Of a stretch of 64,000 bases of DNA, positions 28,450 through 60,175 are shown piece by piece. Position numbers and translations under genes: made by a program. The notes below the pieces were generated by a model. It worked only from the letters and a program-made list of their open reading frames with translations. It ran no database searches and had not been told where the DNA came from. Within the stretch, counting starts at the first letter, position 1. Every line of letters begins with the position of its first letter. This DNA comes from Eledone cirrhosa (Eukaryota): positions 15,624,001 to 15,688,000 of the forward strand of contig OZ024758.1 of NCBI GenBank assembly GCA_964016885.1. The letters run 5' to 3'.

Positions 28450-28676
28450 TTATAGCTCAACATGAATAGCAGTACAATTCAATTTACCACGATCTGAGTT
28501 CCAAATTATATGATGATAAAAATTGATAACTTTCTCATATTTCGAAATTGTTATTTTTTCATTAGCACCATGTATTGTTTTCACCTCGTCTAGAGTCAGT
28601 AAAACAGGACTGAACCTGTAGATATTTTTTGTCAGATCTCTATAGTAATAAGAGTCTGTTTTGGCAGCCATTATTC
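28450..28676 (-). CDS. PM20D1: PM20D1-like last exon
   Basis: ctag|..TDSYYYRDLTKNIYRFSP..IHGANEKI..HVEL*. Confidence 0.92.
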
Positions 28677-29655
28677 CTAGAGAAAAAGAGATACTTACGC
28701 ATTAGAAGATGGCATTAAAAATAATGACAAAGAATACAATCGCAAATACAAGCGGCCAAAATGGGGTTCCTCTGAAGGGTCTTTGGAGTAACACTTCTTG
28801 ATAACACTTCTTGTATGTAGCTTGGAGATCAGAGAGTCATTCCAGGAAGAGCCCCTACTTCTCTGAATTGAGAAATCACAGCATCAAACCAATACTATGG
28901 ACATGGGGTTAGAATGTCTCAGGAAAGAATCGCTGGACAGATTTTACGGGTGAAACCAACCGGTAGGAGACCCAGGGGTAGACCCTGGGCAAGATGGTTG
29001 GATAACATCCATGAGCTTGGTTGGTCATGCTTGGGGATCCAGCTGGATCAGTTGGAAACAGTTGTTTCTGACAGGACCTGTTAGAAGGAGTATTTGAGGA
29101 CTCTGTCCTCATGACGCTCTCAGGAATAAGTGGACAAAGAAGAAGAAGGTACTATGTATGATTAATTGAATTAATTCTATCTTATTACTAGAAGTTCAAG
29201 GAAGTGAGTGGAAGCTAATGCAAAAGGGAGGGCTATTTAAACTGAAGGGAAAGGTATATGATGCATGTGTGATAAGTGTCATGATTTAACCCTTTAACAT
29301 TTACATTACTTTATATATACTATTGTATTTTCACAGTAAAGGCTTTATCTTACATAATTATCTCACATAATATCGAATCTATGAGATTTTGAGAACAATA
29401 CCTTACAGTCGGTATGAGGGTCAGTTATGGCTGGTTTGAAAAGAAAAAGGCAAAAGAATTCTGGCCAGATACAGCCAGTTTAAATGCTTCTTGTTATTGT
29501 TGTAAAGGAGAAAATTCAAGTATAGTCTTTACATTGAATTAAAGTCTTTGACACAACAATAATGAAATCAACTAAAATTTATTTTGAATGAAATGACAAA
29601 ACTTCTTTCCATGTTTTAAGAATAACAGCTCATAAACATTATTTTGGGAGTTTAC

Positions 29656-29821
29656 CTGGTATAACAATCGCTTTGGGAAATATTTCGTAGATGGTGTTTT
29701 TCACCGTCTTGTAACCAAAGCTCATATCATCGTGAGAAGATTTTTGAGAAGGCTTTACGTAAAATTCAACATCCATCTTCACCCTATCATCGTCAATGAA
29801 ATCTTTATCATAAAGAAGTAC
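29656..29821 (-). CDS. PM20D1: PM20D1-like exon
   Basis: gcag|VLLYDKDFIDDDRV..FGYKTVKNTIYEIFP..P G|gtaaac. Confidence 0.9.
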
Positions 29822-30182
29822 CTGCAAATATTTTTTTTTTAAATGTATAATTATTTATTTATTTATTTAAATTTTATGCTGGATTTTCCATGCTTGCATA
29901 GGTGGGGGCTAAACCTGAAGTTTGGCTGTGTCTCATAAGCATTAAGTAACTGAGAATACAAAACTCTGTTCTTGAATGGACTATGAGTCCCTTAGCTGCC
30001 ACTGATACGCATTTTTCAATGCATTTTTCAATGCACACGTGATGAAGCTTCTAACTCTAGGTTAATTTTCAATAAATACATATATCTGTTCATCATCATC
30101 ATAACCGTTTTACGTCCATTCTTCCACGCTAACATGGGTTAGCTTTTAACTCAAGGTTAATAAAAATTAAAAAAAACATGTA

Positions 30183-30590
30183 CATTGAAGCTTCTAATTC
30201 TATGTTAATTAATTAAAAAAACAAAATCACTTGCATTGAAGCTTCTAATTCTAGGTTAATTAATTTAAAAAACAAAATCCCTTGCATTGAAGCTTCTAAT
30301 TCTAGGTTAATTAATTAAAAAAACAAAATCACTTGCATTGAAGCTTCTAATTCTAGGTTAATTAATTAAAAAAACAAAAACACTTGCATTGAAGCTTCTA
30401 ATTCAAGGTTAATTAATTAAAAAAACAAAAACACTTGCATTGAAGCTTCTAATTCTAGGTTAATTAATTAAAAAAACAAAAACACTTGCATTGAAGCTTC
30501 TAATTCTAAGTTAATTAATTAAAAAAACAAAAACACTTGCATTGAAGCTTCTAATTCAAGGTTAATTAATTAAAAAAACATGTGCATTAA
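30183..30590. repeat. 51-bp AT-rich minisatellite
   Basis: tctaggtta at 30301 and 30352. Confidence 0.92.
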
Positions 30591-30736
30591 AGTTTCTTAC
30601 ACTAGAGTAATTTTCAATAAATATATCTGCTCAACATTTCTAAAAATAGATCATTGAAACATGATATTTTTTCCCAAATGCAAATCAAATAGATTATCTA
30701 GGAAAGTCTTTATGAAAGATGAAATGTAATAATTAC

Positions 30737-30808
30737 ATCTTGAAGTGTCTCTGCAGGATGGATGTTATAATTAATAACAGCTTCAGCCCGTACAGGAAGA
30801 ATATTATC
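30737..30808 (-). CDS. PM20D1: PM20D1-like exon (72 nt)
   Basis: ttcag|DNILPVRAEAVINYNIHPAETLQD|gtaatt; compare FNVIP..VNFRIHPGQT. Confidence 0.88.
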
Positions 30809-30939
30809 CTGAAATCAGAGTGAAAGTAAATTTAAGCCATATAAGGAAATATTTTAAAAAGTAAAAGGGGAAAAAAAACAATAACAAAAACACAAATCAT
30901 CATCATATCACCCCCTCCTCCCTCCACCAATACAGTATT

Positions 30940-32307
30940 TTGGGGGCATTTTAAGCCTGGCAGAGCCCATCACTCTCTAGGCCTGAGTTGTATGGTGTTT
31001 CTTGGGCATTTTAAGCCTGGCAGAAACCATCACTCTCTAGGCCTGAGTTGTATGGTGTTTCTTGGGCATTTTAAGCCTGGCAGAGACCATCACTCTCTAG
31101 GCCTGAGTTGTATGGTGTTTCTTGGGCATTTTAAGCCTGGCAGAGACCATCACTCTCTAGGCCTGAGTTGTATGGTGTTTCTTGGGCATTTTAAGCCTGG
31201 CAGAAACCATCACTCTCTAGGCCTGAGTTGTATGGTGTTTCTTGGGCATTTTAAGCCTGGCAGAGACCATCACTCTCTAGGCCTGAGTTGTATGGTGTTT
31301 CTTGGGCATTTTAAGCCTGGCAGAAACCATCACTCTCTAGGCCTGAGTTGTATGGTGTTTCTTGGGCATTTTAAGCCTGGCAGAGACCATCACTCTCTAG
31401 GCCTGAGTTGTATGGTGTTTCTTGGGCATTTTAAGCCTGGCAGAGACCATCACTCTCTAGGCCTGAGTTGTATGGTGTTTCTTGGGCATTTTAAGCCTGG
31501 CAGAAACCATCACTCTCTAGGCCTGAGTTGTATGGTGTTTCTTGGGCATTTTAAGCCTGGCAGAGACCATCACTCTCTAGGCCTGAGTTGTATGGTGTTT
31601 CTTGGGCATTTTAAGCCTGGCAGAGACCATCACTCTCTAGGCCTGAGTTGTATGGTGCTTCTTGGGCATTTTAAGCCTGGCAGAGCCCATCACTCTCTAG
31701 GCCTGAGTTCTATGGTGTTTCTTGGGCATTTTAAGCCTGGCAGAGCCCATCACTCTCTAGGCCTGAGTTCTATGGTGTTTCTTGGGCATTTTAAGCCTGG
31801 AACAGCCCATCACTCTCTAGGCCTGAGTTCTATGGTGTTTCTTGGGCATTTTAAGCCTGGCAGAGCCCATCACTATCAGGCCTGAGTTGTATGGTGTTTC
31901 TTGGGCATTTTAAGCCTGGTAGAGCCCATCACTCTCTAGTCCTGAGTTCTATGGCGTTTCTTGGGCATTTTAAGCCTGGCAGAGCCTATCCCTCTCTAGG
32001 CCTGAGTTGTATGGTGTTTCTTGGGTTTTTTAAGCCTGGCAGAGCCCATCACTCTCTAGGCCTGAGTTGTATGGTGTTTCTTGGGCATTTTAAGCCTGGC
32101 AGAGCCTATCCCTCTCTAGGCCTGAGTTGTATGGTGTTTCTTGGGCATTTTAAGCATGGCAGAGCCCATCACTCTCTAGGCCTGAGTTCTATGGTGTTTC
32201 TTGGGCATTTTAAGCCTGGAACAGCCCATCACTCTCTAGGCCTGAGTTCTATGGTGTTTCTTGGGCATTTTAAGCCTGGCAGAGCCCATCACTCTCCAGG
32301 TCTGAGT
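30940..32307. repeat. 60-bp minisatellite, about 23 units
   Basis: Consecutive 60-nt lines are nearly identical. Confidence 0.97.
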
Positions 32308-32699
32308 ACAGCAGATTTCTTCCAGAGAAAGATAGAAAGTGAGAGAGAAGAAATGAGAAAGAGATATAGAGGAAGAATAGACCCCAGTACTAGACTGGTA
32401 CTTTTGTTATCAACCTCAAAAGGATGAAAGGTAGAATTGACCTGGGTGGGATTTGAACTGAAAGAGGCGGAACGAATACCATAAAGCATTCTATCCGACA
32501 TTCTGACTGTCAATTCATCACCTTGGGATACACATGGTTAAAAAAAGTGAGATCATCACTGCTGAATCATCTGGGTGTACTGGGTATATTTTATTGTGGT
32601 ACCAGTACTACCATGTTACATAGTGTGGCTGTGTGCATTTCATTATGACATTAACATTCTCACTTTACAGAGTATAGAGGGTCCATTCTATCGTGCTAT

Positions 32700-33210
32700 T
32701 AGCATTATGATTTTACAGGGTGTACTGGGTGTATTTAATCATGACATCAGTACTACTACTTTACAGAGTGTACTGGGTGTATTTAATCATGACATCAGTA
32801 CTACCTCTTTACAGGGTGTACTGGGTGTATTTAACCATGACATAAACACTACCACTTTACAGGGTGTACTGGGTGTATTTAATCATGACATCAGTACTAC
32901 TACTTTACAGAGTGTACTGGGTGTATTTAACCACGACATCAGTACTACCACTTTACAGAGTGTACTGGGTGTATTTAACCACGACATCAGTACTACCACT
33001 TTACAGAGTGTACTGGGTGTATTTAACCATGACATCAGTACTACTACTTTACAGAGTGTAATGGGTGTATCTAATCATGACATCAGTACTACCACTTTAC
33101 AGAGTGTACTGGGTGTATTTAACCATGACATCAACACTACCACTCTACAGAGTGTACTGGGTGTATTTAACCATGACATCAACACTACCACTCTACAGAG
33201 TGTACTGCAT
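32700..33210 (-). repeat. 48-bp array from the SINE-internal unit
   Basis: ttacagagtgtactgggtgtattt..; 16-codon periodicity. Confidence 0.88.
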
Positions 33211-33264
33211 GCATTCTATTGTGGAACAATATTCTTTAAAACAAAAAAATGTCCAAATATCCAC

Positions 33265-33343
33265 CTTGGAACCAGCAGTAAATCTGGTCACAGAACTCAC
33301 AGTCCTGATAAAAGCATTTGTTGATGGTTTCTGACTCAGATAC
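33265..33343 (-). CDS. PM20D1: PM20D1-like exon (79 nt, AAG acceptor)
   Basis: ttaag|G YLSQKPSTNAFIRTVSSVTRFTAGSK|gtggat; compare NPLTNAIIRTTTALTIFKAGVK. Confidence 0.87.
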
Positions 33344-33351
33344 CTTAAATG

Positions 33352-33843
33352 CAAATAAAATGTAGATAGATTAAAAAGGAGAAAGTTATTATTTCATATA
33401 TTACTATGATTTGTAAATCTGCCATCACCCACACAAATAAAATGTAGATAGATTAAAAAGGAGAAAGTTATTATTTCATATATTACTATGATTTGTAAAT
33501 CTGCCATCACCCACACAAATAAAATGTAGATAGATTAAAAAGGAGAAAGTTATTATTTCATATATTACTATGATTTGTAAATCTGCCATCACCCACACAA
33601 ATAAAATGTAGATAGATTAAAAAGGAGAAAGTTATTATTTCATATATTACTATGATTTGTAAATCTGCCATCACCCACACAAATAAAATGTAGATAGATT
33701 AAAAAGGAGAAAGTTATTATTTCATATATTACTATGATTTGTAAATCTGCCATCACCCACACAAATAAAATGTAGATAGATTAAAAAGGAGAAAGTTATT
33801 ATTTCATATATTACTAGGATTTGTAAATCTGCCATCACCCACA
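33352..33843. repeat. 82-bp x6 tandem array next to a splice acceptor
   Basis: caaataaaatgtag at 33352, 33434, 33516 and onward. Confidence 0.95.
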
Positions 33844-34123
33844 CAAAAAAAATATTGGAAAATTAGTCAGAAAATTTTGAACATCTGCACCCCACCAAAA
33901 ATGATAGAAATAATTCGCTTATGACTTGACCATGTTTAAGATGTCACTTTAATCCTTTAGCATTTACAATTGAATGCTCTGTTCTCATTCGGGCTAATTC
34001 ACTCTGAGTGAATTAGCCCGATTGAAAACAGAGCATTCAATTACCTCCGAGTCAAAAGCAAAAAAAAAAAAAAAATTTTTTTTCATTCTCATTTTTTCTT
34101 TCTCTGTTTCTTCCTAACTATTA

Positions 34124-34195
34124 TGCAATTATACACCTGATGATGTCACCGGATTCAGACGTAACCTGGCCACTGAAATGTGTATAGTGTTTGCA
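34124..34195 (+). ncRNA. Degenerate minimal type I hammerhead ribozyme motif
   Basis: acac-CUGAUGA-(imperfect stem II)-GAAA-ugugua-UA-gugu; stem I extended by ugcaa/uugca. Confidence 0.5.
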
Positions 34196-34262
34196 GTAAT
34201 AAAATCTAAAGGAATACAACCTGGCCACTCTCCTGTCATTTTACCATATATACACACACACA

Positions 34263-34310
<48 letters not shown>

Positions 34311-34563
34311 TATATAATATATATAAAGCATTGGGCTTGCAATCGAAAGGTTATGAGTTCAATTCTCGGACTGGGTGATGTGTTGTTTCCTTGAGCAAGA
34401 CACTTTATTTCACGTTGCTCCAGTTTACTCAGCTGTAGAAATGACTACCGGCCTGCCCGTCCAGCCAGAGGGATGGCGTTATCTTATGGCTAAAGCAGCA
34501 CGACGTGCTGTGACCAGCGGTGTTGATTGGCGCCCGACAGACTGGTCGGTCAAGGTGATGAAG

Positions 34564-34601
<38 letters not shown>

Positions 34602-34725
34602 AAAGTTCTATTTAAATTGTTGTGATACAACAAGCAAATATTTTTATAACTGGTATAAAGCACTCAAGTATTTGGAGTAAACATACGATATTAACAAATG
34701 GAAACTATATTTATAAAACCATATT

Positions 34726-34790
34726 TATTTCATTATACATATTTCAAGGACACCAAGTTAAATTATGGTGTGCTTTCATCAGACAAAATA
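34726..34790 (-). ncRNA. Minimal type I hammerhead ribozyme motif (mirror copy)
   Basis: Reverse complement of 34872-34936 with one change that creates a U-G pair in stem I. Confidence 0.68.
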
Positions 34791-34871
34791 CAATATAGAT
34801 CAGTTTTATAAATAAATATTGACATACCCTTAAAAAATGCAACCATTACTGTTGGAAGCTCCCGGATAGTG

Positions 34872-34936
34872 TATTTTGTCTGATGAAAGCACACCATAAT
34901 TTAACTTGGTGTCCTTGAAATATGTATAACGAAATA
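34872..34936 (+). ncRNA. Minimal type I hammerhead ribozyme motif
   Basis: Stem I uauuuugu/acgaaaua (8 bp), CUGAUGA 34880-86, stem II aag-c-acacca/uggugu-c-cuu, GAAA 34917-20, near-palindromic stem III, UA site ending 34928. Confidence 0.72.
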
Positions 34937-35411
34937 AATATGGTTTTATAAATATAGTTTCCATTTGTTATATATATATATATATATATATATCTTCTTT
35001 GGCCCCACTCGGTCGCGAATGACCAGGGTTTTGCACCTAGAAAGTTTCCTTCCGAGGCACAAGCCTGGGCAAGGTCTGTTTTGTGGAAGACTAGTAATCG
35101 ACCATGCATACCAGCCTCCCTCTCTACACCACCGATGTTGTCCAAGGGAAAGGCAGTGACTGATACAGCTTGGCACCAGTGACATTGCAACTCATTTCTA
35201 CAGCTGAGTAAACTGGAACAACGTGAAATAAAGTGCCTTGCTCAAGCACATAACGCATCACCCGAGCCCAAATCTCTAACCACTAAGCCATGCGCCTTCA
35301 TATATATATATATATATATCATCGATTAACATCTATCTTACACGCTAGCATGGGTTAGATGGGTTTGTCCCATTTAGAGGCAAGTTGGGTTGGGTGACCG
35401 TGTTTGTGTTT

Positions 35412-35448
<37 letters not shown>

Positions 35449-36107
35449 GGCACGTGACAGTGGTTAGAGAATTGGATTCGCAATCATGAGGTTGTGATTT
35501 TGATTCCTGGACCGGGCGAGCAAGACACTTTATTTCACGTTGCTCCTTCTGCTTGGATTTGCAACTGACAGATAGTATTAGCAATTGGAAAGACCAACAG
35601 AAACATTGTTTCCTTCGTCCAATTTGAAGAGCTCCAACCCACTTGTTAAGCGAATGAGGTCTGGGATCTTGTCGATATATATATATCATCATCATCACCA
35701 TCATCATCATCATTTTACGTCCGCTTTTTTCCCTGCTTGCAAGGGGGGGACGGGAACTGATTCTGGCTTGATTTCTACAGCTGGATGCCCTTCCTAACAC
35801 CAACCTCATTTACAGTGAGTGCTGGGTGCTTTTTTTGCCGTGGCACCTCCACGACCACTTTGCAGTGGAATGATAGGGACTGGGGTCCATATCATTGGAA
35901 TGATATGGACCCCAGTCCCTATCATCTCATTTCTACAGCTGAGTAAACTGGAGCAATGTGAAATAAAGTGTCTTGCTCAAGGAAACAACACATCACCCGA
36001 TCCCAGAATTTAACTCACAACCTTTCAAAAGTATTCTCAGTTTTGTTTAAAAGTAAAATGAACAGTTAATAACTACATCAAGTTAACTTTTATTCCAGAA
36101 AACTTAC

Positions 36108-36169
36108 CTTCCTACAGTGTATTTGAAAAGCCATAAGTTGGAGAATAACATACGATTGGTAAAAGATAG
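36108..36169 (-). CDS. PM20D1: PM20D1-like exon (62 nt)
   Basis: atag|LSFTNRMLFSNLWLFKYTVG R|gtaagt; compare ILSNPWLF. Confidence 0.87.
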
Positions 36170-38033
36170 CTATTTAAAATTAAATTAAAATAAAGTAAAA
36201 AAATTGCATTAAACGCGAGTAAATACTTTCATTATCATATCTTTATAGGGAAAAGAGGAGTCAAATGCTTATTTATACCTTTTAATAACTACAAGTTGAA
36301 ACATCCAAGGACCTTGTTATCACAAACAATTGTAAGAAAATACCTTGGTCAATGTGTTCCGTCTTCCATACTTGCTGTGACAGGCTTCTGACATCCATCA
36401 TATAAATAATTATCCTTTTGAACACTCAATTCGCTATAAACACAAATTTATTGTAGAAAGCTGAATTTCTATACATATAGTTGAATATCTCATATTGAAA
36501 ACATAGCGTAATAGAACAATCCACGAAATGTGGAATATGCCTTGTTGATAAATGTTCAATTCCTCCTAACAGGATTATAGCAGGATTACAGTAGGAGCTA
36601 TCCTGAAGTAGGTCTCTCTTCGTGTGCTAGCCGGTTTTCACAAGGAGGCGACAATGTATTCATACGCCACTTACGATTAGTCTGTTTAACCAAATCACAT
36701 ATGAAATATTGCTATTGCAAGGTATGAAGTAGTTCCACTACATCATCATCATTGTTTAACTTCCATCTTCAACGCTAGCATGAATAGGACTATTTTAAAT
36801 GACACTGCACACGATTTTCAAATAATTTTTGAAAATAGTGCACCTGAGCACTGTACACAATAATTTCATTATTATCATTATTAATATATCCTTGGATTTG
36901 AAGAGATTTGTAAATATATCGAATGTTCTCATTATCAAGCTTTGGTTTGGAACAACTTAACCCGCCATTATCAGGCTTTGGTTTGGAACAACTTAACCGG
37001 CCATATCCAGCCAGAATTCTCTCACCTCTTTCTGTCCAAACCGGCTGTAACCAGCTGCTCATATTGATGTTAAGGTATTGTTCTCAAAATAGATATCAAA
37101 ATCTCATAGATTTGATATTAAGTGAGATAATTATGTGAGGTAAAGCCTTTACTGCGAAAATATAATAGTAAATATAGAGTAATGTAAATGGTAAAGGGTT
37201 AAGGTTATTTACTTCACTAAAGCAGGAGTTGGACAAATGGATCCTTTTTGAGGTCATGTTTTACAGCCAGATCCCATTTTTAGCACTGATCCTTTTAGAA
37301 ACATTTTACTACGTGCAAGAGGTACCTATTCTAAACCAAATGCACACATTTGATGTTCTATAACAGAATGCAAAAAATATTTTTTAACAGTTGCTATATA
37401 ATACATTGCTATATAATACATTGCTATATAGTACTAGTCTGGTACTAGGGTCAATTCTTCCTCTCTCTAAAAGACATCTGCTGTACTCAGGCCTGGAGTG
37501 GGATGGGTTCTGCCAGGTTAAAATGTCCAAGAAACAATATATGTCAATACAGCACCCTTACGACTATCAGGATTTACAAGACCATACCATACCATATAAT
37601 ACTTATGCCTATATTTAAACCCCTTTTTTTTTCATTCCTACATCATCATCATCGCCGCTTAACGTCTATCTTCCATGTTAGCATGGGTTAGACAGGTTTG
37701 TCCCAATTAGAGGCAAATTGGGTCAGGTGACTGTGTCTTGCTCATATAGGAGAGTCTCTGGCTGGTTTTCTACGGCTGGATGCCCATCCTAACGCCAACC
37801 ACATTGACTGTTTGCTGGGTGCTTTTTGCCACGTCTTTTACGCATCCACTTTACAGTGTGGGCTGGGTGTTTTGGGGCTGGTTTTCTACGGCTGGATGCC
37901 CTTCCTAACGCCAACCACATTTACAGTGTGTGCTGGGTACTTTTTGTCATGACACCTATACATCAGAAAATAATATTGAGAATCTAAATCTTTGTCAAAA
38001 AGTAAGCAGCAAATCGAACTATCAAAATCTTAC

Positions 38034-38109
38034 CTTGGGTGCTATCTCTTCAAGAATGGTTTGTTCTAGTCCACTACCTATTATAATAGGTTTGGGATTT
38101 GCTTCAATT
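38034..38109 (-). CDS. PM20D1: PM20D1-like exon (76 nt)
   Basis: atag|IEANPKPIIIGSGLEQTILEEIAPK|gtaaga. Confidence 0.88.
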
Positions 38110-38465
38110 CTATAAAAAAAATATTGTTTAGGTAAATCAACTCTTTACATCTTGCAGCAATTTAGCAGAAAATATTTAAAAATAGGCTTTCCCTGCTTGC
38201 AAGGGTGGGACGGGTCTTATTCAGCATCTCACCACTTGTCACGGTGAGCTTCAGCGATCAGAACAGACCTCAGATCGCTGAAGCTCACCGAGGAGATGAC
38301 GAAGGACCGTGACAAGTGGAGAGATGCTGTACTGAATAGGACCCGTCCTACTCTTGCAAGCAGGGAAAAGCGGACGTAAAATGATGATGATGATGATGAT
38401 GTTTGTTAAGTTCAAATGTTTATAGTGCTGGATAGATTGTTGTGGGGATTCACAATAAAGAGTAA

Positions 38466-39062
38466 GGTGTGTGTGTGTCTCTCTCTCTCTCTCTCTGTGG
38501 TGTGTGCATGCGCATGCGCGCGTGTGTGTGTACATGGTGTATGTGTGAGCATGGTGTGTGTGTGTCTATATGTGTGTATGTGTGTGTGTATACATTCACG
38601 CCTCTGTGTACAGTGTATATGTAAGTGTGCATGACATGTAAATGTGAGCATGGTGTGTACATGTGTGTAGCATGCATGTGTGCATGAGTGCATGTGTGTG
38701 CATGTGTGCGTGCATGTATGTATGTGCATGTGTGCGTATGAATGTGTATGTGTGTATGCATGTACATGTATGTACATGTATGTACATGTATGTACATATG
38801 AATGTGTATGTACATGTATGTGTGTACGTGTGTGTATGAATGTGCATGTTAATGTGTGTGCATGTGTATGTGCATGTGCATGTATGTACAAGTGTGTGCA
38901 TGTATGTACAAGTGTGTGCATGTGTGTATGAATGTGCATGTGCATGTATGTACAAGTGTGTGCATGTATGTACAAGTGTGTGCATGTGTGTATGAATGTG
39001 CATGTGCATGTATGTACAAGTGTGTGCATGTATGTACAAGTGTGTGCATGTGTGTATGTATA
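38466..39062. repeat. (TG/TGCA/TGTA) low-complexity tract
   Basis: Direct reading. Confidence 0.92.
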
Positions 39063-39081
39063 TAAGATGTGAGAGACTTAC

Positions 39082-39201
39082 CTGCTTATAGCATTAGACA
39101 AAATACCAATGGCGCTCTCAGGTGGAGGAAATGAAGAATGACTGTCTGTAGTATTGACATGAAGTCGCACAGTAGCCTCACCCTTCTCGACAACACCAAT
39201 C
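39082..39201 (-). CDS. PM20D1: PM20D1-like exon (120 nt)
   Basis: ttag|IGVVEKG..SHSSFPPPESAIGILSNAIS R|gtaagt. Confidence 0.92.
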
Positions 39202-39621
39202 CTAAGAAAACCAGCCAAAATATTCCAAGATCAGATTAAATATTTAAATATCTGAGATAAAGCCTTTACCACAAAAATACAATAGTAAATATAGAGAAAT
39301 GTAAATGCTAAAGGGTTAAGTTACTATCTTAGAAAGGAAATACCATATCTCCCGGCGTCGAAGACGCTACTTTTTTCCTAGAATAAGTCTCAAAAATATA
39401 CGATGCGTCCTGGAGGTCGAAGGTTGTTTATTATTTTTTTTCAAATTTTTGGTTATCAAAATTAGGGTGCGTCCTCGAGAACGAAGCGTCTTCGATGCTG
39501 GGAAATGCGGCAATAATTTTAGTAAATCCCTTGAAATTCTTCATTAATTAAGACAGAGTGTATTTCATTAGAAATGCAGTCATGAATGAAAGGGTTAAGG
39601 AAGGCCTGCAAACAAACTCAC

Positions 39622-39755
39622 ATGGCAATGGGATCCTTAATACCGCTGAATAACTCGTTGAAGAACACAAGACCTTCATCCAAAACAAACTCCAACATGA
39701 CACCTCGAGTTTTCAGAACCTCAGCTATAACTTTTGCTCCATGAATGCCGGTCCC
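39622..39755 (-). CDS. PM20D1: PM20D1-like exon (134 nt)
   Basis: ttag|GTGIHGAKVIAEVLKTRGVMLEFVLDEG..PIA|gtgagt. Confidence 0.93.
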
Positions 39756-39871
39756 CTAAACAGAATGAGATGATCATGTTTATAATTAGTTTAAAAGAAA
39801 TATCACTAACACAAATATAAAATAGGAGGTTAACCCTTTTCAGACAAACCTAGCCTACACAAGCTCTCATT

Positions 39872-40500
39872 CTATAGTGGTCAAGTAGGTGTCACTATAA
39901 AAAGTACCCAGTCCACACTGTTAAGTGGTCAAGTGAGTGTCACTATAAAAAGTACCCAGTCCACACTGTTAAGTGGTCAAGTGAGTGTCACTATAAAAAG
40001 TACCTAGTCCACACTCTAAAGTGGTCAAGTGAGTGTCACTATAAAAAGTACCCAGTCCACACTCTAAAGTGGTCAAGTAGGTGTCACTATAAAATGTACC
40101 CAGTCCACACTGTTAAGTGGTCAAGTAGGTGTCACTATAAAATGTACCCAGTCCACACTCTAAAGTGGTCAAGTGGGTGTCACTATAAAAAGTATGTAGT
40201 CCACACTGTAAAGTGGTCAAGTAGATGTCACTATAAAAAGTACCCAGTCCACATTGTAAAGTGGTCAAGTGGGTGTCACTATAAAAAGTACCCAGTCCAC
40301 ACTGTAAAGTGGTCAAGTAGATGTCACTATAAAAAGTACCCAGTCCACATTGTAAAGTGGTCAAGTGGGTGTCACTATAAAAAGTACCCAGTCCACACTG
40401 TTAAGTGGTCAAGTGAGTGTCACTATAAAAAGTACCCAGTCCACACTGTTAAGTGGTCAAGTGGGTGTCACTATAAAAAGTACCCAGTCCACACTGTAAA
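39872..40500 (+). repeat. 48-bp array from the SINE-internal unit, followed by the SINE tail
   Basis: Unit cactataaaaagtacccagtccacactgtaaagtggtcaagtgggtgt. Confidence 0.9.
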
Positions 40501-40864
40501 TCTAGTTGGCATTAGGATGAGCATCCAGCCATAGAAAACAAACCAAAATCAGTTCTGTATGAGCAATGCATGGTCATCTGATCTGGCTTGTTTCACAATG
40601 GGGCAACTCGTCTAACCCTTGTTAGTGTGGAAAAATGGATGTTAAACAGTGATGATGATGATGATAATGAAAACCATCTATCTAAATTAAAATCTCCCAA
40701 CAGAATTTTATATAAGAGATAGATGTTAAGATTAGTGAATGCGCATGGCTTAGTAGTTAGAGCGTTGGACTTATGAGGGTGTGAGTTCAATTCCCAAGCC
40801 GGGTGATGCATTGTGCCCTTCAGCAAGACATTTTTTTTCACATTGTTCCAGTTTACTCAGCTGT

Positions 40865-41060
40865 AGATCAACTTTCACAACTTCTGCCCAGATCTTCCTC
40901 GGTCTCCCTCTACTGCAACTTCCGACCACTGGGATTTCTTGGCACTTCTTTACCAAACGATCACCATTCATACACATCACATGTCCATACCAGAACAGTC
41001 CCCTCTCCTGCACACTACATTTGATTCCTCCAAATAACCAGTTTTTCTCACAGCTCATCC
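40865..41060 (-). mobile_element. RTE LINE 3' fragment fused to a SINE piece
   Basis: LFWYGHVMCM..RGRPRKIW. Confidence 0.75.
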
Positions 41061-41137
41061 ATGCATATTAACAATCCTTAAAATTACATGCAAGTTTCTA
41101 CACCATATATTTCTCTCTAAAATGCTTGGTTAGTATA

Positions 41138-42041
41138 CAAGGTGTGTCAGAAAAGTTTCAGGACTGATGTCACAAAAGATTTATTTCAAACCCAAACTTC
41201 ACACTAAGAGTTTTCTCCTTCAAAGTAATCCCCCTGGAGTATGTAACTGTAATCTTAGTTCTCTGCAGCGATCAAACTTTTTTCTTCATAATTTTATATA
41301 CATGCCCTCTGTCTCAGGTCGTCAAGCAATGAGCACAGAGCAACGAACAAACTTGAAGTTTCTGGTACGGTTGGGGAAAACTCCGTCAGAAGCACTGGGA
41401 TTGCTGCAGCAAGTGTATGGAGATGAGATGATGTCATGCTCACGTGTTTTTGAGTGGTGCAAGAGGTTTAAAGAAGGACGCGAGTACATGGAAGATGACT
41501 CCAGGAGCGGAAGGCCCTCAACAACCAGGACTGAGGTCAACGTTGAGCGCGTCAGGCAGATGGTGCATAGCGATCATCGGCTGACTGTTTGACTGATGGC
41601 AAATGAGCTGGGCATGAATCGGGACAGCGTCTGGAAGATTTGGACATGCGGAAAGTCTGTGCGAAGATGGTGCCAAAACTGCTGAACGATGACCAGAAGG
41701 GTCGACGCATGCAAGTGTGCCAGGACATCCTCGAGCGTCTTGAAACCGAACCAGACTTGCTAGGGACAGTCATCACCGGTGATGAGTCATGGATCTTCGA
41801 GTACGACCCGGAGGAGACCCATTTTGAAGACGTGGATGGCATCAAAAAGGCCGTGACGACGGAACTGCGGAGGATCCCGGAAGAATCCTTCCAGGAGTGC
41901 ATGCAAGCGTGGCAGAAAAGGATGGAAAAGTGATTTAGACTCCAGCGGGATTACTTTGAAGGAGAAAACTCTTAGTGTGAAGTTTGGGTTTGAAATAAAT
42001 CTTTTGTGACATCAATCCTGGAACTTTTCTGACACACCTCG
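41138..42041 (+). mobile_element. Internally deleted mariner transposon with ~103-bp inverted ends
   Basis: TA TSD; HTH region EQRTNLKF..RSGRPST, KMVPKLL, VITGDESWIFEYDPE, C-terminal DYFEG; most of the catalytic domain is missing. Confidence 0.92.
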
Positions 42042-42169
42042 TATACTTTACATACTAACACACCACATATTTCTCTCTAAAATGCGTGGTTAGTATATAA
42101 TTTACATACTAACACACCACATATTAAATATTTTATAACTTTCAAACATCAATCGAGATAAATACATAC

Positions 42170-42256
42170 CTCTTTATCGTGTCCGAATGCAATGTAGAAG
42201 GTTCGATTGGGCCTAAATTCAAAGTTCAGAGCATAATCTAACCCCTCCATGATACC
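42170..42256 (-). CDS. PM20D1: PM20D1-like exon (87 nt)
   Basis: ttcag|GIMEGLDYALNFEFRPNRTFYIAFGHDKE|gtatg; compare PRRSFFISLGHDEE. Confidence 0.92.
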
Positions 42257-43736
42257 CTGAATAAAAAAAAAAAGAAGAGACTTATGTTTATGAAAATTAA
42301 TTTTGTTGAAAATAAAGTTTTATTTCAAAAATCTCTTGCCGGTTAACCCTTTAGGATTTAAACTGGCTGTATATGGCCAGAATTCTCTTACCTCTTTCTG
42401 TGTTCAAACCAGCCGTAACTGGCCACTCATACCAATGTTAAGGTATTGTTTTCATAATAAATAATATCAAAATCTCATAGATTTGATATTATGTGAGATA
42501 ATTATGTGATGTAAAGCCTTTACTATGAAAATATAATAGTATATATAGAGTAATGTAAATGGTAAAGGGTTAAACCGGCCATATCTGGCCAGAATTCTCT
42601 CACCTCTTTCTGTTCAAACCGGCCATAACTGGCCACTCATACTGATGTTAAGGCATTGTTCTCAAAATAAATAATATCAAAATCCTATAAATTCGATATT
42701 ATGTAAGATTAGCTTTTATCTTTAAAATGCAATAGTAAATATAGAGTAATGTAAATGCTAAAAGGTTAATGTTAGAACTGCCAAAAATATTTTAAACCTT
42801 TCAAGACCATATTTCTGATGGAATACACTATATTTTAATTAATTGATGAAGAATTTCGAAGGATTCACTAAAATCATTTTATTGCTTCAAAATAGCTTCA
42901 CAATTTCTGTCATTTCCCTTACGACACCACAGGTGGACATAGGGGCATGGTGCAGCTAAGACGAGGTCTTGGTAGCGATCTCTTGCCATTGACAATCATG
43001 GAGAGTCATCATCAGGATATCCAAGGCTGCCTGCACTCTCATGGGCAAAGCGCTAGTGCCATTCATCAACCAGGCACTCGCTACCAACAGCCTGCAAGAC
43101 TGGAACAAATTTTTCAGTTCTGCAATTATTCTTGGGATCCCGATGGCAGGGGAGGATTCGGGCCCCTCCTTGACCTTGAGGCAACATAGCTTCCTTCTGC
43201 CCCCCCCCCCCTCCACTTACCAAGTAGCCTCTTGCTTCTCTCATGCTGTCCACCAGCACCAACACCACTATACATGCAGTCCTTTTTCAAGCAGTTACTT
43301 ATCACTAGTAAACAAACATCTGGGCTATAATTTGCAAGTCATTTAACCCTTTAGCATTTAAACCAGCCATATCCAGCCAGAACTCTCTCACCTCTTTCTG
43401 TTCAAACTGGTCATAACTGGCCACTCATGCCTACATTAAGGCATTGTTCTCAAAATAAATAATATCAAAATCTCATAGATCCGATAGTATGTAAGATCAT
43501 TTTGTAAGATAAAGCCTTTACTATGAAAATAGAAGAATAATATAGAATAATGTAAATGCTAAAGGGTTAAAGGAACAACACTATGACAGGCAACCTAGTT
43601 TGTTTTTTTCAATTCTATTTTGTTTAGTTTTTAATTCTGTTAAAGGTTAAATTTATATTGAAAACTTTTTGAAATAGATACACAGGATAGCTGCACAGAA
43701 ACTGAGGTAATTTTGGGAAGTAGACCATATAATGTT

Positions 43737-44397
43737 ACAACAACAGCAACAGTGACAACAGCAACAATAGTAACAGTGACAGTAACAGCAACAGTGACAG
43801 CAGCAACACTAACAACAACAATAGCAACAGTGACAGTAACAGCAACAGTGACAGCAGCAACACTAACAACAACAATAGCAACAGTGACAGCAACAGCAGC
43901 AACACTAACAACAACAATAGCAACAGTGACAGCAACAGTGACAGCAGCAACAAAAACAACAGCAACAACAGTAATAGCAACAACAGCAACACTAACAACA
44001 ACAATAGCAATAGCAACAGTGACAACAACAATAGTAACAACAACAGCAACAGTGACACAGCAGCAACAACAGTAATAGCAACAACAATAACAGCAACAAT
44101 GACAACAACAACACCAACAACAGCAACAATGACAGCAGCAACAACAGTAATAGCAACAACAGCAACACTAACAACAACAATAGCAATAGCAACAGTGACA
44201 ACAACAACAGCAACAGTGACACAGCAGCAACAACAGTAATAGCAACAACAATAACAGCAACAATGACAACAACAACAGCAACACCAACAACAGCAACAAT
44301 GACAGCAGCAACAACAGTAATAGCAACAACAGCAACACTAACAACAACAACAATAGTAACAACAACAGTAGCAATAGGAGCAGCAACAATAAACAAC
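43737..44397. repeat. (CAA/CAG)n-type degenerate trinucleotide tract
   Basis: Direct reading; intronic. Confidence 0.93.
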
Positions 44398-44559
44398 ATG
44401 ATTCAAATTCAGAAACATTGGAAACATAAAGGCTGAATCAAATGAGATAATCTTATGAAACGTTTATCAAATATCAAAGATGTAATGAGATAATAAAGAA
44501 GAAGACTATTGTATTGTCTTTCAAGTTCTATTAACATCTATCATTAACCTTCTTCAGCC

Positions 44560-45088
44560 CACTTTCCCATGACAGCATTATCTAAAAACAACAGGGTTCT
44601 CTCTATGAACGAAAGGCAGGTTATATGATGCCTGTGTGAGATGCGCAACGCTGCATGGTAGTGAGAGATGGGCAACAACTGCAGATAATGCAAAGGCTGG
44701 AGAGAAATGAAGCAAGCATGCTCCAATGGATGAGCAATGTCAATGTGTGTGAGCGACCAAGCGTGGACAAGTTGAGAGTGAAACTGTGTATAAAGAGGAA
44801 TAAACTGTAGTGTGCAGGAGAGAAGACTGCATTGGTATGACTAATGTGATGTGCATGGATGATGAACACTGAGTGAAGAAGTGCCAAGTAATCCCAGTGG
44901 AAGGAAGACACAGTGGAAGGAAGACACAGTAGAGGAAGACCACGAAAAACATGGACGGAGGTGGTGAGAACTGACCTCAGATCACTGAAACTCACGGAGG
45001 AGATGACGAAGGACGAAGGACTGTGCTGAAGAGGACCTGTCCCACCCTTGCATGCAGGGAAAAGCGGACGTTAAAATGACGATGATGA
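44560..45088 (+). mobile_element. RTE LINE 3' fragment; shorter tails at 2497-2650(-), 38262-38400, 62935-63127
   Basis: RRLHW..RGRPRKTWTEVVRTDL..EMTKD; ends cccacccttgc..gggaaaagcggacgt..(atg)n. Confidence 0.82.
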
Positions 45089-46956
45089 CCAAGGCAGCGA
45101 ATTGGCTGTATTGCTAGAGCGTCCAGATAACATGCTTTGTGGCATACAGTTACATCCCTTCATGTTCTGAGTTCAAATCCTGCCAATGTTAGCTTTGACT
45201 GATTTTCATTCCTACAAGGTCAATAAATTAAATAAAGTACCAGTAATGCACTGGAATCAGTTTAATCAACTTTCCTCTCCCTAAAAAAATAATTGTTGGC
45301 CTTGTAGCTAAATCAGAAATCATTTTCTAAAAACATCCTATCCTAGCATGGGAAAGTGGACACAAAAAAAAAAAAAAAAATACCAATGATGATCCTCTTA
45401 ACCAAATATACACCCCAATCCACTACTCCTACTCTATCCTCCCACTCCCACCAACACCACCCTCTCTCTGTAAAGTTGGTACCACAACATTCAGTCCAAA
45501 TAAATGAGATTGAGATCGGGTAGGTGTCACGACAAAAAAACACACAGTGTAATGTGGCCGTGTAATGTCCACGCTGTAATGTGGCCATGTAGGTAACTCT
45601 GTGAGAACCTCCCAGTCCACACTGTAAATGTTGTTGGTGTTAGGAAGGGCATCCAGCCGTAGAAAACCTGCCAGACAGTCCTATATGAGCGAGACACGGT
45701 CACCCGGCCAACCTTGCCTCAAGTGGGACAACTCCCGTCTAACCCATGCTAGCATGGAAGATGGACGTTAAACGAAGATGATGAGATGATGATGATAAAA
45801 TAAAATGATCAAATAACCTGGCTTTGTTTCTGTTGGTATTGATCTGAAACAGGGGATAATCTTACTGTTCAATCAAGGAGAGAGGGGCAACTGCCAACAA
45901 CAAACCTGTAACAACTGATTTAAACTTTCAGTATTCAACCCAAACATATCCAGCCAGAATTCTCACACTTCTCTCTGTTCAAACCAGCCCTTCATACTTA
46001 CGTTAAGGTATTGTTCTCAAAATGAATAACATTAAAATCTCATAGATTTGATATTATGTGAGATAATTATGTGAGGTAAAGCCTTTACCATGATCATACA
46101 ATAGTATATGTAGAGTAATGTAAATGGTAAAGGGTTAAAGGACATGTGGAACCAAGCAGAATTTTAACACATAATTAGCTACCAAATGTTGGTAGAAGCA
46201 AGAAGCAATCCTAGCACTGTACCATTGCAACACCTCATCCAATTAGTAGTACTAATTAGTCTATTGCTATTGAAACAGCCTGCCATTGAAATATTCTAAT
46301 TATATAAGCTGGATAAGGTGCTGACCAATGGAGTCATGCCATTAGCACTACAATGGCTTCAGAGTACTAAAACTGTAAGTTGAAACCACTAACATTTCCC
46401 CCACTGTTGTTGTTTAGCTCTAGATCTGATCAAAGCTGTTCCATCTATAATTACTCTTCTTTAACTCTTTAACATTTAAACCGGCCATATCCGGCCAGAA
46501 TTCTTTCACCTCTTTCTGTTCAAACTGGCTGTAACTAGCTGCTTATACTGATGTTAAGGTATTGTTCTTAAAGTAAACAATATGAAAATCTCATAGATTC
46601 AATATTGTGAGATAATTATGTGCGGTAAAACCTTTACCATGAACATATAACAGTATATATATAGAGTAATGTAAATGGTAAAGGGTTAAACAAACAAAAC
46701 AAACATCTATCTAGAACTACAACAATTGCTTTGAGGCCAGTACTCACTGTAAATGAGGTTATCATTAGGAAGGGCATCCAGCTGTAGAAACCAAGCCCAA
46801 ATCAGTTCTGTATGAGCAAGACATGGTCAGCTGACCTGGCATTGCTCACAACAGGACAAATCGTCTAACCCATGCTAGCGTGGAAAAATGGACGTTAAAC
46901 AATGATGATGAAGATGATATATATAAAAAACCAAGACAACATTCAACAGTACATAC

Positions 46957-47189
46957 CATTACATTTTGTTTCGCACTGAGAGTACCTCTACCATAAATGT
47001 AGTCACCGTCGACTTTTCCAGAAAAGGGAGGATATTTCCAGTTATCTTTTCTGACAGGCAAAACATCTAAATGTGCTGATAACAAATAGGGTTTTAGGCT
47101 TTTGTTTGTTCCAGAAATTGTATACAACATGCTGTGTTCTCTAAAAATTTCATATCTTATGAAAGGGCTGCTGTGAATCAAAGGAAAAG
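46957..47189 (-). CDS. PM20D1: PM20D1-like exon (233 nt, first one located)
   Basis: ttcag|FPLIHSS..LKPYLLSAHLDVLP..WKYPPFSG..IYGRGTLSAKQNVM|gtatg; the ten exons join in frame (1256 nt). Confidence 0.94.
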
Positions 47190-47559
47190 CTGAAATATAG
47201 AAATGTAAACAAATAACCAAATAATGATTGATCTCGTAAAAAATAGCAGCCAAACCTCCCTCAAAACACACCCAAACAGCTTTAAAAAGGATATATTCAA
47301 CAATGTAGTCTGGGTACACTATTTCCGGGTTAAAAAAGAAAAGATGAGTTTGTCATCTTTGAATCATTTGTCTCCTCAGTGTTAAAGAATAAAAACTAAT
47401 GATAAAATAAAAATATACTTTTTAAAATGAGGACCCCTGAGGGTGTGTGGTCCTAAGCTATAGATTATAGGTAAGTCCAATTTTGTTAATGCCAACCACT
47501 CTACAGAGTGAACTGGGCATATTTGATCATGGCATCAGCACTGCTATTTTATAGAGTAT

Positions 47560-48190
47560 ACTAAGCACATTTTATCGTGACACCAGTATTACCACTTACA
47601 GAGTGTACTGGGTGTATTTTATCATGGCACTAGCACTACCATGTACAGAGTGTACTGGGTGTATTTTATCATGGCACTAACACTACCACTTACAGAGTAC
47701 TGGGTGTATTTTGTCATGGCACTAGCACTACCAGTTTACAGAGTGTACTTGGTATATTATATCATGACACCAACACTACCACTTTACAGAGTACTGGGTG
47801 TATTTTGTCATGGCACTAACATTACCACTTTGCAGAGTGTACTTGGTATATTATATCATGACACCAACACTACCACTTTACAGAGTACTGGGTGTATTTT
47901 GTCATGGCACTAACATTACCACTTTACAGAGTGTACTTGGTATATTATATCATGACACCAACACTACCACTTTACAGAGTACTGGGTGTATTTTGTCATG
48001 GCACTAACATTAACACTTTACAGAGTGTACTTGGTATATTATATCATGACACCAACACTACCACTTTACAGAGTGTACTGGGTGTATTTTGTCATGGCAC
48101 CAGCACTACCACTTACAGATTGTTCTGAGTGTATTTTATTATGGCACCAGAACTACCACTTTACAGAGTGTACTAGGTGCATTTCACCAT
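47560..48190 (-). repeat. 46/48-bp (94-bp dimer) array from the SINE-internal unit
   Basis: actttacagagtgtactgggtgtatttt units. Confidence 0.85.
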
Positions 48191-49337
48191 GACACAAAAC
48201 ACAAAGTGTTTGTTTAGTATTAAGTGCACACAACAAAAACTGGAAGTGTTTATGTTGATATATACTTCGATAAGGCACCGGATATACTTGCAATTAACCC
48301 CTGGTTACGGCTCGCCACCCCTGGTGTAGAAGGCACCCTTGTTGCTTTATTTGTGAATGCTGTTGTTAAGCAGCAAGTCAACCCTAAGCAAAAAGACAAA
48401 CAATTAACCCTTTCACAACCATATTTCTACTGAAACACACTATTTCAATTAGTTAATGAAGAATTTTGAGGGATATGCTAAAATTATTAATTATTTTATT
48501 ACTGAGATAGTAACTTTACTTTGGTTCTTAAATAAAATCATTTTGGAGGATTTTAATTTAAATAGGAACCCTCTTTAAAACATGATTTTGGCAGATCTGG
48601 TAAAGGGTTAAAGGCTCTTGAACAACACTAATACATTGGGAACTACATTGTCCAAGATGGTAGCATGGGACCAATCTATATATAAATTTGAGCGACTTCT
48701 GTCTGTCCGTCACTCAAAGCGTGTATATGTGTGAAAGGTAGGAAGGGAATGGTGAAACAACTATAGCAAAACAGCAGTGTGTGTGTGTAAATGTATGTGT
48801 TTGTGTGAATGTATGTGTTTGTGTGAATGTATGTCTGTGAGTGCGTATTTTTGTAAGGGTGTTTGCGGCGCGTTTATATTTATATACTCATACATATAAA
48901 TGTATGCATATGCACATACACATACGCGTCAACGTGTTGAAAAAAATCCTCGTGTTTCTAAATTTTTTACAGTACATCTTTTTAACACCAAACATTATAT
49001 TAGGTAAGGTGTTAGAGCATTGCTGGGAGCTCGTGAAAGAGGAACTATTAACGAAGGACCTTTACTGTAGACTTGTTACTGAACTGGCCAGCAGTGGAGG
49101 CACTTCCGGTTAAGCGAGTAATAACAAGACCTGAAATTTAGGGGTAGATCGCTCTTCTTTATAAATGTCATGCAATAAACAACAGTTCAACAAATGAACC
49201 GTTTATTGCTATTTTGAGGTAAAACTTTAATTAAAACCTATAAAGGCATCAAATTATCTGAGGATGTTGCGGTGAAACAAAAACGATTAGGAAACTCTGT
49301 AGTAGTGTGTGATTTGAAATGAGTTTCGTCTGCTATT

Positions 49338-49728
49338 TCTAGCGACCAGCATAATAACTCCCCTCAGCTTTAACAACCACATAATGGCTCCCTACAGCTC
49401 TAGCGACCACATAACTCCCTACAGTTCTAGCGACCACATAATAACTCCCTACAGCTCTAGCGATCACATAATAACTCCCTACAGCTCTAGCGATCACACA
49501 ATGGCTCCCTACAGCTCTAGCGACCACACAATGGCTCCCTACAGCTCTAGCGACCACACAATGGCTCCCTACAGCTCTAGCGACCACACAATGGCTCCCT
49601 ACAGTTCTAGCGACCACATAATGGCTCCCGACAGCTCTAGCGACCACATAATGGCTCCCGACAGCTCTAGCGACCACATAATGGCTCCCGACAGCTCTAG
49701 CGACCACATAACTCCCTTCAGCTCTAGC
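49338..49728. repeat. 30-bp minisatellite
   Basis: Unit atggctccctacagctctagcgaccacaca. Confidence 0.95.
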
Positions 49729-50330: not shown

Positions 50331-50331
50331 G

Positions 50332-54702: not shown

Positions 54703-54740
54703 ACTGGCCATTGGAGCCTTATATATATATATATATATAT

Positions 54741-60144: not shown

Positions 60145-60175
<31 letters not shown>

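What the first reader, a model, noticed from the sequence alone, without database searches (positions are those of the whole stretch)
28450..47189. PM20D1-like gene with an intact frame but a rewritten active site (candidate pseudoenzyme or lipid-binding protein)
Seen: ten GT-AG exons join into an uninterrupted frame of 417 codons plus stop. GRGTL-D-DK reads GRGTL-S-AK (AGT, 46975-77). GHD-E-E reads GHD-K-E (AAA, 42173-75). NF-R-IHP reads NY-N-IHP (30764-66). GHSS reads SHSS and GNTD reads AKTD. HxD, DEG and the C-terminal IHG are kept. Known: in M20 peptidases the first three positions are the bridging Zn ligand (human D157), the general base (E191) and a carboxylate-binding Arg. Inference: several targeted losses in an otherwise preserved gene suggest a selected non-catalytic or altered-chemistry paralog. 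Asp to AGT needs at least two base changes, so sequencing error is unlikely.
Basis: partly seen in the sequence, partly recalled or inferred. Interest (0 to 1): 0.75.

Follow-up and report, generated by a model that had tools for sequence, protein, structure and literature searches.

The report
Octopod's only PM20D1 lost its catalysis
An octopus-like animal keeps an intact, spliced gene for the fat-signal enzyme PM20D1 in which three key active-site residues are replaced, and no normal copy was found in its genome assembly, so the protein likely no longer cuts its substrate and is predicted to work as a binder of fatty molecules instead.

Summary
Ten AG/GT exons give 417 codons without a stop; an eleventh, 5' exon just beyond the window completes a 506-aa protein. 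The bridging Asp (D160S), general-base Glu (E194K) and carboxylate-binding Arg (R367N) are replaced, at columns that are 94-99% fixed in homologues. The AKTD change is mostly ordinary variation. A contig of run X4 joins three exons exactly, so the gene is spliced. The protein keeps 59 of 65 strongly conserved columns, including all four terminal metal ligands. Simulated recent neutral decay gave this pattern in 0 of 6000 runs per setting. The 'paralog' reading is not supported. The gene sits at the Octopus PM20D1 locus (next to SHPK), groups with octopod PM20D1, and six genome searches found no canonical copy. Best reading: a selected pseudoenzyme at the ancestral locus, likely a metal-assisted fatty-acyl binder; this function is inferred, not shown. 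Mussels have an independently degenerate copy with the same Glu-to-Lys change. No orthologue sharing the changes was found and dN/dS could not be run. The scan had noted dead M20 domains before, in prokaryotes only.

The parts
47190..64000 (-). First coding intron (17.6 kb, runs past the window end). Coding exon 1 lies just outside the window at L006 1051-787: ATG, hydrophobic signal/anchor segment, N-terminal 88 aa
   Evidence: 35% to O. sinensis residues 1-101, E 4e-9; phase fits the next exon; hydropathy 3.35. The join of exon 1 to exon 2 is inferred from homology and phase, not seen in RNA.
46957..47189 (-). Exon 2: H128 and D130 kept; bridging Asp replaced by Ser160 (AGT, 46977-46975)
   Evidence: (PF01546, 29.9 bits)
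42170..42256 (-). Exon 3: GHD-K-E; general-base Glu replaced by Lys194 (AAA, 42175-42173); ligand E195 kept
39622..39755 (-). Exon 4: LDEG (D221, E222 kept); keeps a residue that Octopus and Argonauta PM20D1 have deleted
39082..39201 (-). Exon 5: start of the lid (dimerisation) domain; G260S next to the kept H261
38034..38109 (-). Exon 6
36108..36169 (-). Exon 7 (SNLWLF)
   Evidence: joined to the next two exons in X4 record 25
33265..33343 (-). Exon 8
30737..30808 (-). Exon 9: N354 kept; carboxylate-binding Arg replaced by Asn367 (AAC, 30766-30764)
   Evidence: (spliced contig and DNA contigs, 0 other letters)
29656..29821 (-). Exon 10
28450..28676 (-). Exon 11: AKTD (T438, D439 kept), IHG (H467 kept), C-terminal HVEL and stop

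Best explanation
This is the PM20D1 gene of an octopod at its ancestral locus, intact and spliced, whose protein has lost the bridging Asp, the general-base Glu and the carboxylate-binding Arg; it is therefore predicted to be a catalytically dead or nearly dead enzyme that selection likely keeps as a secreted or membrane-anchored binder of fatty-acyl ligands. Shown: gene structure, splicing, the substitutions, synteny, accelerated but still constrained evolution, and retention of the terminal metal ligands H128, E195, E222 and H467 plus D130, H261 and N354. Inferred: (1) amide hydrolysis and synthesis are lost, because Lys cannot act as the Glu acid/base and the di-metal bridge is gone; (2) one or two metal ions still bind weakly at the H128/E222 and E195/H467 pairs; (3) a ligand carboxylate, most simply a fatty acid, would take the place of the lost bridging Asp and be clamped by Lys194, while loss of the Arg removes recognition of the amino-acid head group. 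Step 3 is the least certain.
For: Family roles of D113, E147 and R276 (human ACY1 numbering) are listed in PMC13058870 Table 2. General-base mutants there keep 1.7% activity (MsAA E157A); the paper cites no activity for DapE and a 1000-fold loss for ACY1. The columns are nearly fixed in homologues. Of 65 columns at least 90% conserved in 87 non-octopod homologues, 59 are kept; the six departures are V132L, D160S, E194K, G260S, R367N and R472K. At sites with known ancestral state, change is 6 of 65 at the most conserved columns versus 29 of 55 at the least conserved (Fisher p 1.8e-5 for >=90% versus <70% columns). Recent neutral decay reproduced 'frame and splice sites intact, at least 3 active-site hits, at least 2 double-hit codons' in 0 of 6000 runs in each of three settings. 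A spliced contig is present. Synteny: the neighbouring SHPK is 86% identical to O. bimaculoides XP_014783795, whose accession directly precedes the PM20D1 models XP_014783796-802 on a contig of the same length; in O. vulgaris SHPK is CAI9714835/836 and PM20D1 is CAI9714838. Trees place the protein in the octopod PM20D1 clade (100/99) on a long branch. No canonical copy was found in six own-genome searches, one of which did pick up a 32-aa ACY1-like exon.
Against: No biochemical data, no ligand and no structure of this protein: the spliced protein was not folded, only the canonical O. sinensis homologue. No orthologue sharing the substitutions was found (best identity 52%), so dN/dS and the age of the changes are unknown. 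Enrichment of losses in the active site alone is modest (p 0.01-0.03 for 3 of 4 radical changes, 0.04-0.11 for 3 of 6), and the double-hit criterion was chosen after seeing the data. The rate excess is significant in only 6 of 9 relative-rate tests. An intact frame alone does not exclude recent decay (4-12% of simulated runs). RNA support is one low-depth contig from one sample, covering three exons. PMC13058870 notes a report that ACY1 R276 is not essential. The genome search is heuristic: the Pfam query missed ACY1, so an unassembled or withheld canonical copy cannot be excluded.
Confidence: 0.6

Rival explanations
1. A dispensable gene under relaxed selection: catalysis was lost, the protein has no selected new role and is slowly decaying, with ACY1- or FAAH-type enzymes covering the function.
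For: The branch is about three to four times longer than canonical octopod branches (0.73-0.99), and identity to Octopus is 50-52% against 86% for neighbouring SHPK. Changes are spread over all domains. RNA depth is low. An ACY1-like gene with its motifs is on C1. PM20D1-knockout mouse tissues keep FAAH activity for some substrates (PMC7145423 passages).
Against: Two catalytic codons carry double changes, which implies long freedom from constraint, yet frame, 20 splice dinucleotides and 59 of 65 conserved columns are intact. P(no stop) is 0.012 at 80 neutral amino-acid changes.
Confidence: 0.15
2. Altered chemistry: the remaining ligands hold a rebuilt metal site, for example with carbamylated Lys194 as the bridge (as in M38 amidohydrolases), that catalyses a different reaction.
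For: All four terminal ligands plus D130 and the trans-acting H261 are kept. Loss of a bridging carboxylate coincides with gain of a Lys at the adjacent base position. Carboxylated Lys bridges two metals in M38 enzymes (PMC11511702 section 8).
Against: No general base is left; no precedent in the M20 fold among the papers read; geometry could not be modelled; the mussel copy has the same Lys but keeps the Asp and loses other ligands, so the Lys need not be a replacement bridge.
Confidence: 0.12
3. A-to-I RNA editing restores part of the active site (Lys AAA to Glu, Ser260 AGT to Gly), leaving a weak or tissue-switched enzyme.
For: Editing-permitted G-to-A substitutions are proposed for coleoids (PMC6881472 abstract). 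11 of 63 branch-specific changes can be reverted by A-to-G, versus 2-3 for the other transitions, and they include E194K, G260S and R472K.
Against: Editing cannot give back the bridging Asp (AGT gives Gly) or the Arg. The spliced contig shows no edit at I355 or N367. A-to-T (12 of 63) scores as high. No standout duplex partner for the Lys codon (-23 kcal/mol; controls -23 to -28).
Confidence: 0.05
4. A non-catalytic partner of a canonical PM20D1 that is missing from the assembly: it donates its kept trans-acting His and Asn to the partner's active site in a heterodimer.
For: M20A enzymes complement in trans (E157A plus H226A heterodimers regain 13% activity; PMC13058870). The lost residues act in cis; H261 and N354 are kept. 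The tree puts this gene outside Octopus plus Argonauta (p-AU 0.027 against nesting with Octopus), which fits an old duplicate.
Against: No second copy in 264 kb without any N around the locus or genome-wide. The cis metal ligands are also kept. The basal position could simply follow the species tree.
Confidence: 0.08

Closest known systems
PM20D1, N-fatty-acyl-amino acid synthase/hydrolase (MEROPS M20A); Octopus sinensis XP_036369005 and XP_029638959, O. bimaculoides XP_014783796-802, Argonauta hians GAB1597757
   Same: Colinear 505/506 aa with one indel, N-terminal hydrophobic segment, C-terminal H-x-EL, same locus next to SHPK, same clade
   Different: Only 50-52% identical (canonical octopod copies are 71-90% to O. 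sinensis copy a); D160S, E194K, R367N, G260S; single copy where Octopus has a tandem pair
Aminoacylase-1 / DapE / MsAA (M20A enzymes with known mechanism; PDB 1Q7L, 5VO3)
   Same: Fold of the canonical homologue matches DapE (Foldseek E 4e-25); six of eight metal and catalytic residues of PMC13058870 Table 2 are kept
   Different: Bridging Asp and acid/base Glu absent; alpha-carboxylate Arg absent
Degenerate PM20D1-like proteins of Mytilus (XP_076110074, XP_071172185, CAC5391788), the sponge Oscarella (P0032) and the ostracod Cyprideis (N-terminal half of CAG0884080)
   Same: Full-length or near-full PM20D1 fold with the general base lost; all 12 members of the Mytilus cluster have Lys at the Glu position and His for the Arg
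   Different: Independent origin (a common clade with Mytilus is rejected, p-AU 0.0024); they lose terminal ligands that this protein keeps; Mytilus retains a canonical paralogue; databases label the Mytilus proteins PM20D1 or PM20D1-like without comment
Non-catalytic clan MH proteins: transferrin receptor, nicastrin, nicalin, yeast Dug2p (recalled; two searches gave no paper that I read on them)
   Same: Zinc-peptidase fold reused without catalysis for binding or scaffolding
   Different: Those are ancient duplicates with most ligands lost; this one keeps the terminal ligands and appears to replace the only copy in one lineage

Membership tests
PM20D1 gene family (descent) | Colinear homology and grouping with PM20D1 | tested here: met
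   octopod PM20D1 clade, 100/99
PM20D1 gene family (descent) | Syntenic position of octopod PM20D1 | tested here: met
Inferred from accession order, not from genome maps.
PM20D1 gene family (descent) | N-terminal signal/anchor segment | tested here: met
   Hydropathy maximum 3.35 at residues 4-22; cleavage not predicted
Active M20A metallo-amidohydrolase | Bridging Asp (ACY1 D113, PM20D1 D157) | tested here: not met
   Ser160, AGT
Active M20A metallo-amidohydrolase | General acid/base Glu (ACY1 E147, PM20D1 E191) | tested here: not met
   Lys194, AAA; editing state in RNA unknown
Active M20A metallo-amidohydrolase | Terminal ligands His, Glu, Glu, His and the orienting Asp | tested here: met
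   H128, E195, E222 (and D221), H467, D130
Active M20A metallo-amidohydrolase | Trans-acting lid His and Asn (ACY1 H206, N263) | tested here: met
   H261 and N354 kept; the Gly before the His is Ser
Active M20A metallo-amidohydrolase | Alpha-carboxylate-binding Arg (ACY1 R276) | tested here: not met
   Asn367; Arg in 87 of 87 aligned non-octopod homologues
Active M20A metallo-amidohydrolase | Two bound metal ions and amide hydrolase/synthase activity | not testable with these tools
   Needs recombinant protein
Pseudogene | Broken frame or splice sites, no transcript, neutral substitution pattern | tested here: not met
Pseudoenzyme under selection | dN/dS below 1 among orthologues that share the catalytic losses | not testable with these tools
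   No such orthologue and no octopod coding DNA were available; only a protein-level conservation gradient was tested

The most novel reading that the evidence does not exclude
One octopod lineage has given up PM20D1 catalysis altogether and turned its only copy into a metal-assisted fatty-acid carrier or sensor, in which the ligand's carboxylate replaces the lost bridging Asp and Lys194 clamps it. The same Glu-to-Lys change with loss of the Arg arose independently in mussels, which would mark a recurrent route from enzyme to lipid binder and expose a non-catalytic function of PM20D1.
Probability: 0.25. Interest if true: 0.75.

Novelty: new variant of a known kind. Interest (0 to 1): 0.52.

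Why it matters
PM20D1 sets the levels of N-acyl amino acid signalling lipids in mammals (PMC7145423 passages). An animal whose only detectable copy is a predicted natural catalytic null, yet is still spliced and constrained, separates the enzyme's catalytic role from any binding role and makes that question testable. It also suggests that 'PM20D1-like' database labels hide repeated pseudoenzymes (octopod, mussels, a sponge, an ostracod). The paper searches run here (open-access library only, mostly seen as listings) showed no report of a catalytically dead or cephalopod PM20D1.

Tried and rejected
Sequencing or assembly error: rejected for the Ser and Asn codons; the Lys codon was not checked against reads. 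Canonical paralogue in the genome: not found. Of the weak extra hits, C1 is an ACY1-like gene (motifs match the 1Q7L alignments). The C9 hit and the C2 hit carry stops and show no further family pieces. The two hits at E above 1 were not followed up. AKTD and the second Asp as targeted losses: rejected. Common origin with the mussel degenerate copy: rejected. Orthologues with the same changes: none among 4, 150 and 57 hits; this is weak evidence of absence. No RNA holder was listed by record; X4 is taken as RNA only because of its spliced contig. Atlas search of the mussel protein returned only general M20/PM20D1 clusters. The careful mixture-model trees did not finish (searches are quick trees); one search uses LG+G4 on 14 rows. 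A duplex scan for editing partners gave nothing distinctive for the Lys codon; the Ser260 region scored -37.6 kcal/mol against an intronic stretch near 41033, which was not followed up. No complex prediction was run. FAAH was not searched. Long et al. 2016 was not held.
Full report
Observation. The ten exons and the three headline codons are exactly as described. A profile scan of 264 kb around the window found one further coding exon about 0.8 kb past the window end. It starts with ATG and a hydrophobic segment, ends in a GT donor of the right phase, and gives a 506-aa protein colinear with Octopus PM20D1 apart from one residue. No second set of exons lies in the 264 kb, which holds no N.

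How unusual the changes are. Pairwise alignment of all 154 proteins shows Asp in 149 of 150, Glu in 74 of 79 and Arg in 46 of 47 sequences that cover these columns. The residue after the Asp and the GN of GNTD vary, so they carry little weight. For column conservation I used alignment A2: 92 full-length homologues, 5 octopod and 87 others; fragments and the degenerate P0043/P0155, P0032 and P0005 were left out. Of 65 columns at least 90% conserved, this protein keeps 59; canonical octopod copies keep 62-65. The departures are V132L, D160S, E194K, G260S, R367N and R472K. By PMC13058870 (passages and section 2.7 read) and PMC11511702 (passages and first part of section 8 read), D160 is the bridging metal ligand, E194 the acid/base and R367 the alpha-carboxylate binder. 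Mutants of the acid/base Glu keep 1.7% or less of activity in three M20A enzymes. H128, D130, E195, E222, H261, N354 and H467 are kept.

Real and expressed. Four runs from one study hold the region. On 28000-38300, contigs of X1-X3 cover exons 6, 7, 9, 10 and 11 with no differences listed in the coding parts. X4 record 25 joins 30734-30807, 33264-33340 and 36105-36169 with no other letters, which matches my splice model. X4 is not labelled RNA; I infer this from the spliced contig.

Selection. At sites where the outgroup consensus, Argonauta and an Octopus copy agree, the protein has changed 6 of 65, 15 of 70, 13 of 53 and 29 of 55 positions from the most to the least conserved class. Neutral simulation leaves the frame open in 36% of runs at 20 amino-acid changes, 1.2% at 80 and 0 of 1000 at 150. 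A recent-death model stopped at 4-6 conserved-column hits leaves frame and splice sites intact in 4-12% of runs, gives at least three active-site hits in 1.6-7.4%, at least two double-hit codons in 0.07-0.7%, and all together in 0 of 6000 per setting (the double-hit criterion is post hoc, indels not modelled). So constraint on the catalytic residues was likely lost long ago while the fold stayed constrained. If the six kept metal-site residues (H128, D130, E195, D221, E222, H467) were as free as the variable class, keeping all six would have a chance of about 1% (0.47 to the sixth power; my estimate), which argues for a retained metal or ligand site. Evolution is also faster: 50-52% identity to Octopus versus 86% (80-91% by exon) for neighbouring SHPK, and 6 of 9 relative-rate tests are significant.

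Orthologue or paralogue. Octopus and Argonauta carry canonical PM20D1 genes, a tandem pair in Octopus. The window gene lies between an N-acylglucosamine 2-epimerase gene and a RING/NHL gene followed by SHPK. In O. bimaculoides and O. vulgaris, SHPK and PM20D1 have adjacent accessions on contigs of the same length, so this is the syntenic locus. Six searches of the own genome, with the window exon, a bacterial-type homologue, two canonical octopod proteins, a canonical last-exon stretch and PF01546, gave significant hits only here. One search also caught a short exon of an ACY1-like gene at 53% identity, so a canonical copy at over 70% should have shown. Trees put the protein in the octopod clade: sister to Octopus plus Argonauta, unresolved. 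It lacks a one-residue deletion that those share, and nesting with Octopus alone is rejected at p-AU 0.027 (long-branch caveat). This fits either a host outside Octopus plus Argonauta or an old tandem duplicate whose canonical sister was lost.

Mechanism. In canonical M20A enzymes the fatty-acid carboxylate sits between the two metals before attack (PMC13058870, docking and proposed mechanism). Here the bridge and the base are gone, the site has gained positive charge, the terminal ligands remain and the head-group Arg is lost. The simplest functional reading is a trap for an acyl carboxylate without turnover. This is inference; no model of the spliced protein was made. The canonical homologue folds confidently (pLDDT 93.9) and matches DapE. 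Rivals are slow decay, rebuilt chemistry with a carbamylated Lys, partial rescue by A-to-I editing (PMC6881472, abstract only; it cannot restore the Asp or Arg), and partnership with an unassembled canonical copy.

Comparison with what is known. By descent it is PM20D1. By the defining catalytic residues it is not an active M20A enzyme. Degenerate PM20D1-like proteins also occur in Mytilus (12 of 12 cluster members with Lys at the base and His for the Arg), Oscarella and Cyprideis, and the Mytilus one arose independently. Dead clan MH folds such as transferrin receptor, nicastrin and Dug2p are recalled, not checked here. Earlier notes of this scan describe dead M20 domains in prokaryotes only; nothing was noted near this locus or on look-alike DNA. 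Supplementary files were not consulted; cephalopod expression tables there could bear on tissue and editing.

Verdict. A real, spliced, constrained pseudoenzyme-like PM20D1 that appears to be the sole copy in this assembly: a new variant of a known kind, interest about 0.5, limited by single-species evidence and an untested function.

Noticed in passing
window 50755-54470 (+), inside the first coding intron: Gypsy-type LTR retrotransposon with gag-like (DUF7041), RT, RNase H and integrase pieces in several frames; a repeat present near 50000-50300 and 57500-58000 may be its LTRs.
   Followed up: partly
window about 11266-19322 (+): N-acylglucosamine 2-epimerase (RENBP-like) exons, tail to tail with the PM20D1 gene; one exon hits PF07221, the others are assigned by eye.
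   Followed up: partly
L007 6194-7795 (-) and L009 7214-7906 (-): RING and NHL-repeat ORFs, probably one TRIM-NHL gene with two very large exons.
   Followed up: partly
L010 8547-9308 (+) to L014: Sedoheptulokinase gene, four exons, 80-91% identical to O. bimaculoides.
   Followed up: yes
L017 2850-3248 (-), L018 3882-6715 (-): PX-domain exon and kinase-like exons, likely PXK (kinase part by eye).
   Followed up: no
L034-L040 (G000:C1 about 342.79-342.82 Mb, +): ACY1-like gene with NSHMDVVP, DMK, LDEG, GHGS, TDSR and LLHDHNE motifs; the DEE exon was not located.
   Followed up: partly
G000 contig sizes: C1 443 Mb and C2 416 Mb against C9 57 Mb and C19 40 Mb. The PM20D1-SHPK block is on the 40-Mb C19 here but on 200-226-Mb contigs in Octopus, which suggests different chromosome fusions.
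   Followed up: no
P0244 (O. vulgaris CAI9714838), P0005 (Cyprideis CAG0884080): Gene models that fuse two tandem PM20D1 copies; in Cyprideis the first copy is degenerate and the second canonical.
   Followed up: partly
window 43750-44400, 47495-48195, 49338-49728, 61128-62033: Long intronic micro- and minisatellites: a TTG-type repeat and arrays of 48, 30 and 40 bp.
   Followed up: no
window 41555-41950 and L015 3398-3745: Mariner/Tc1-like transposase remnants (L015 hits HTH families; the window piece is assigned by eye).
   Followed up: no
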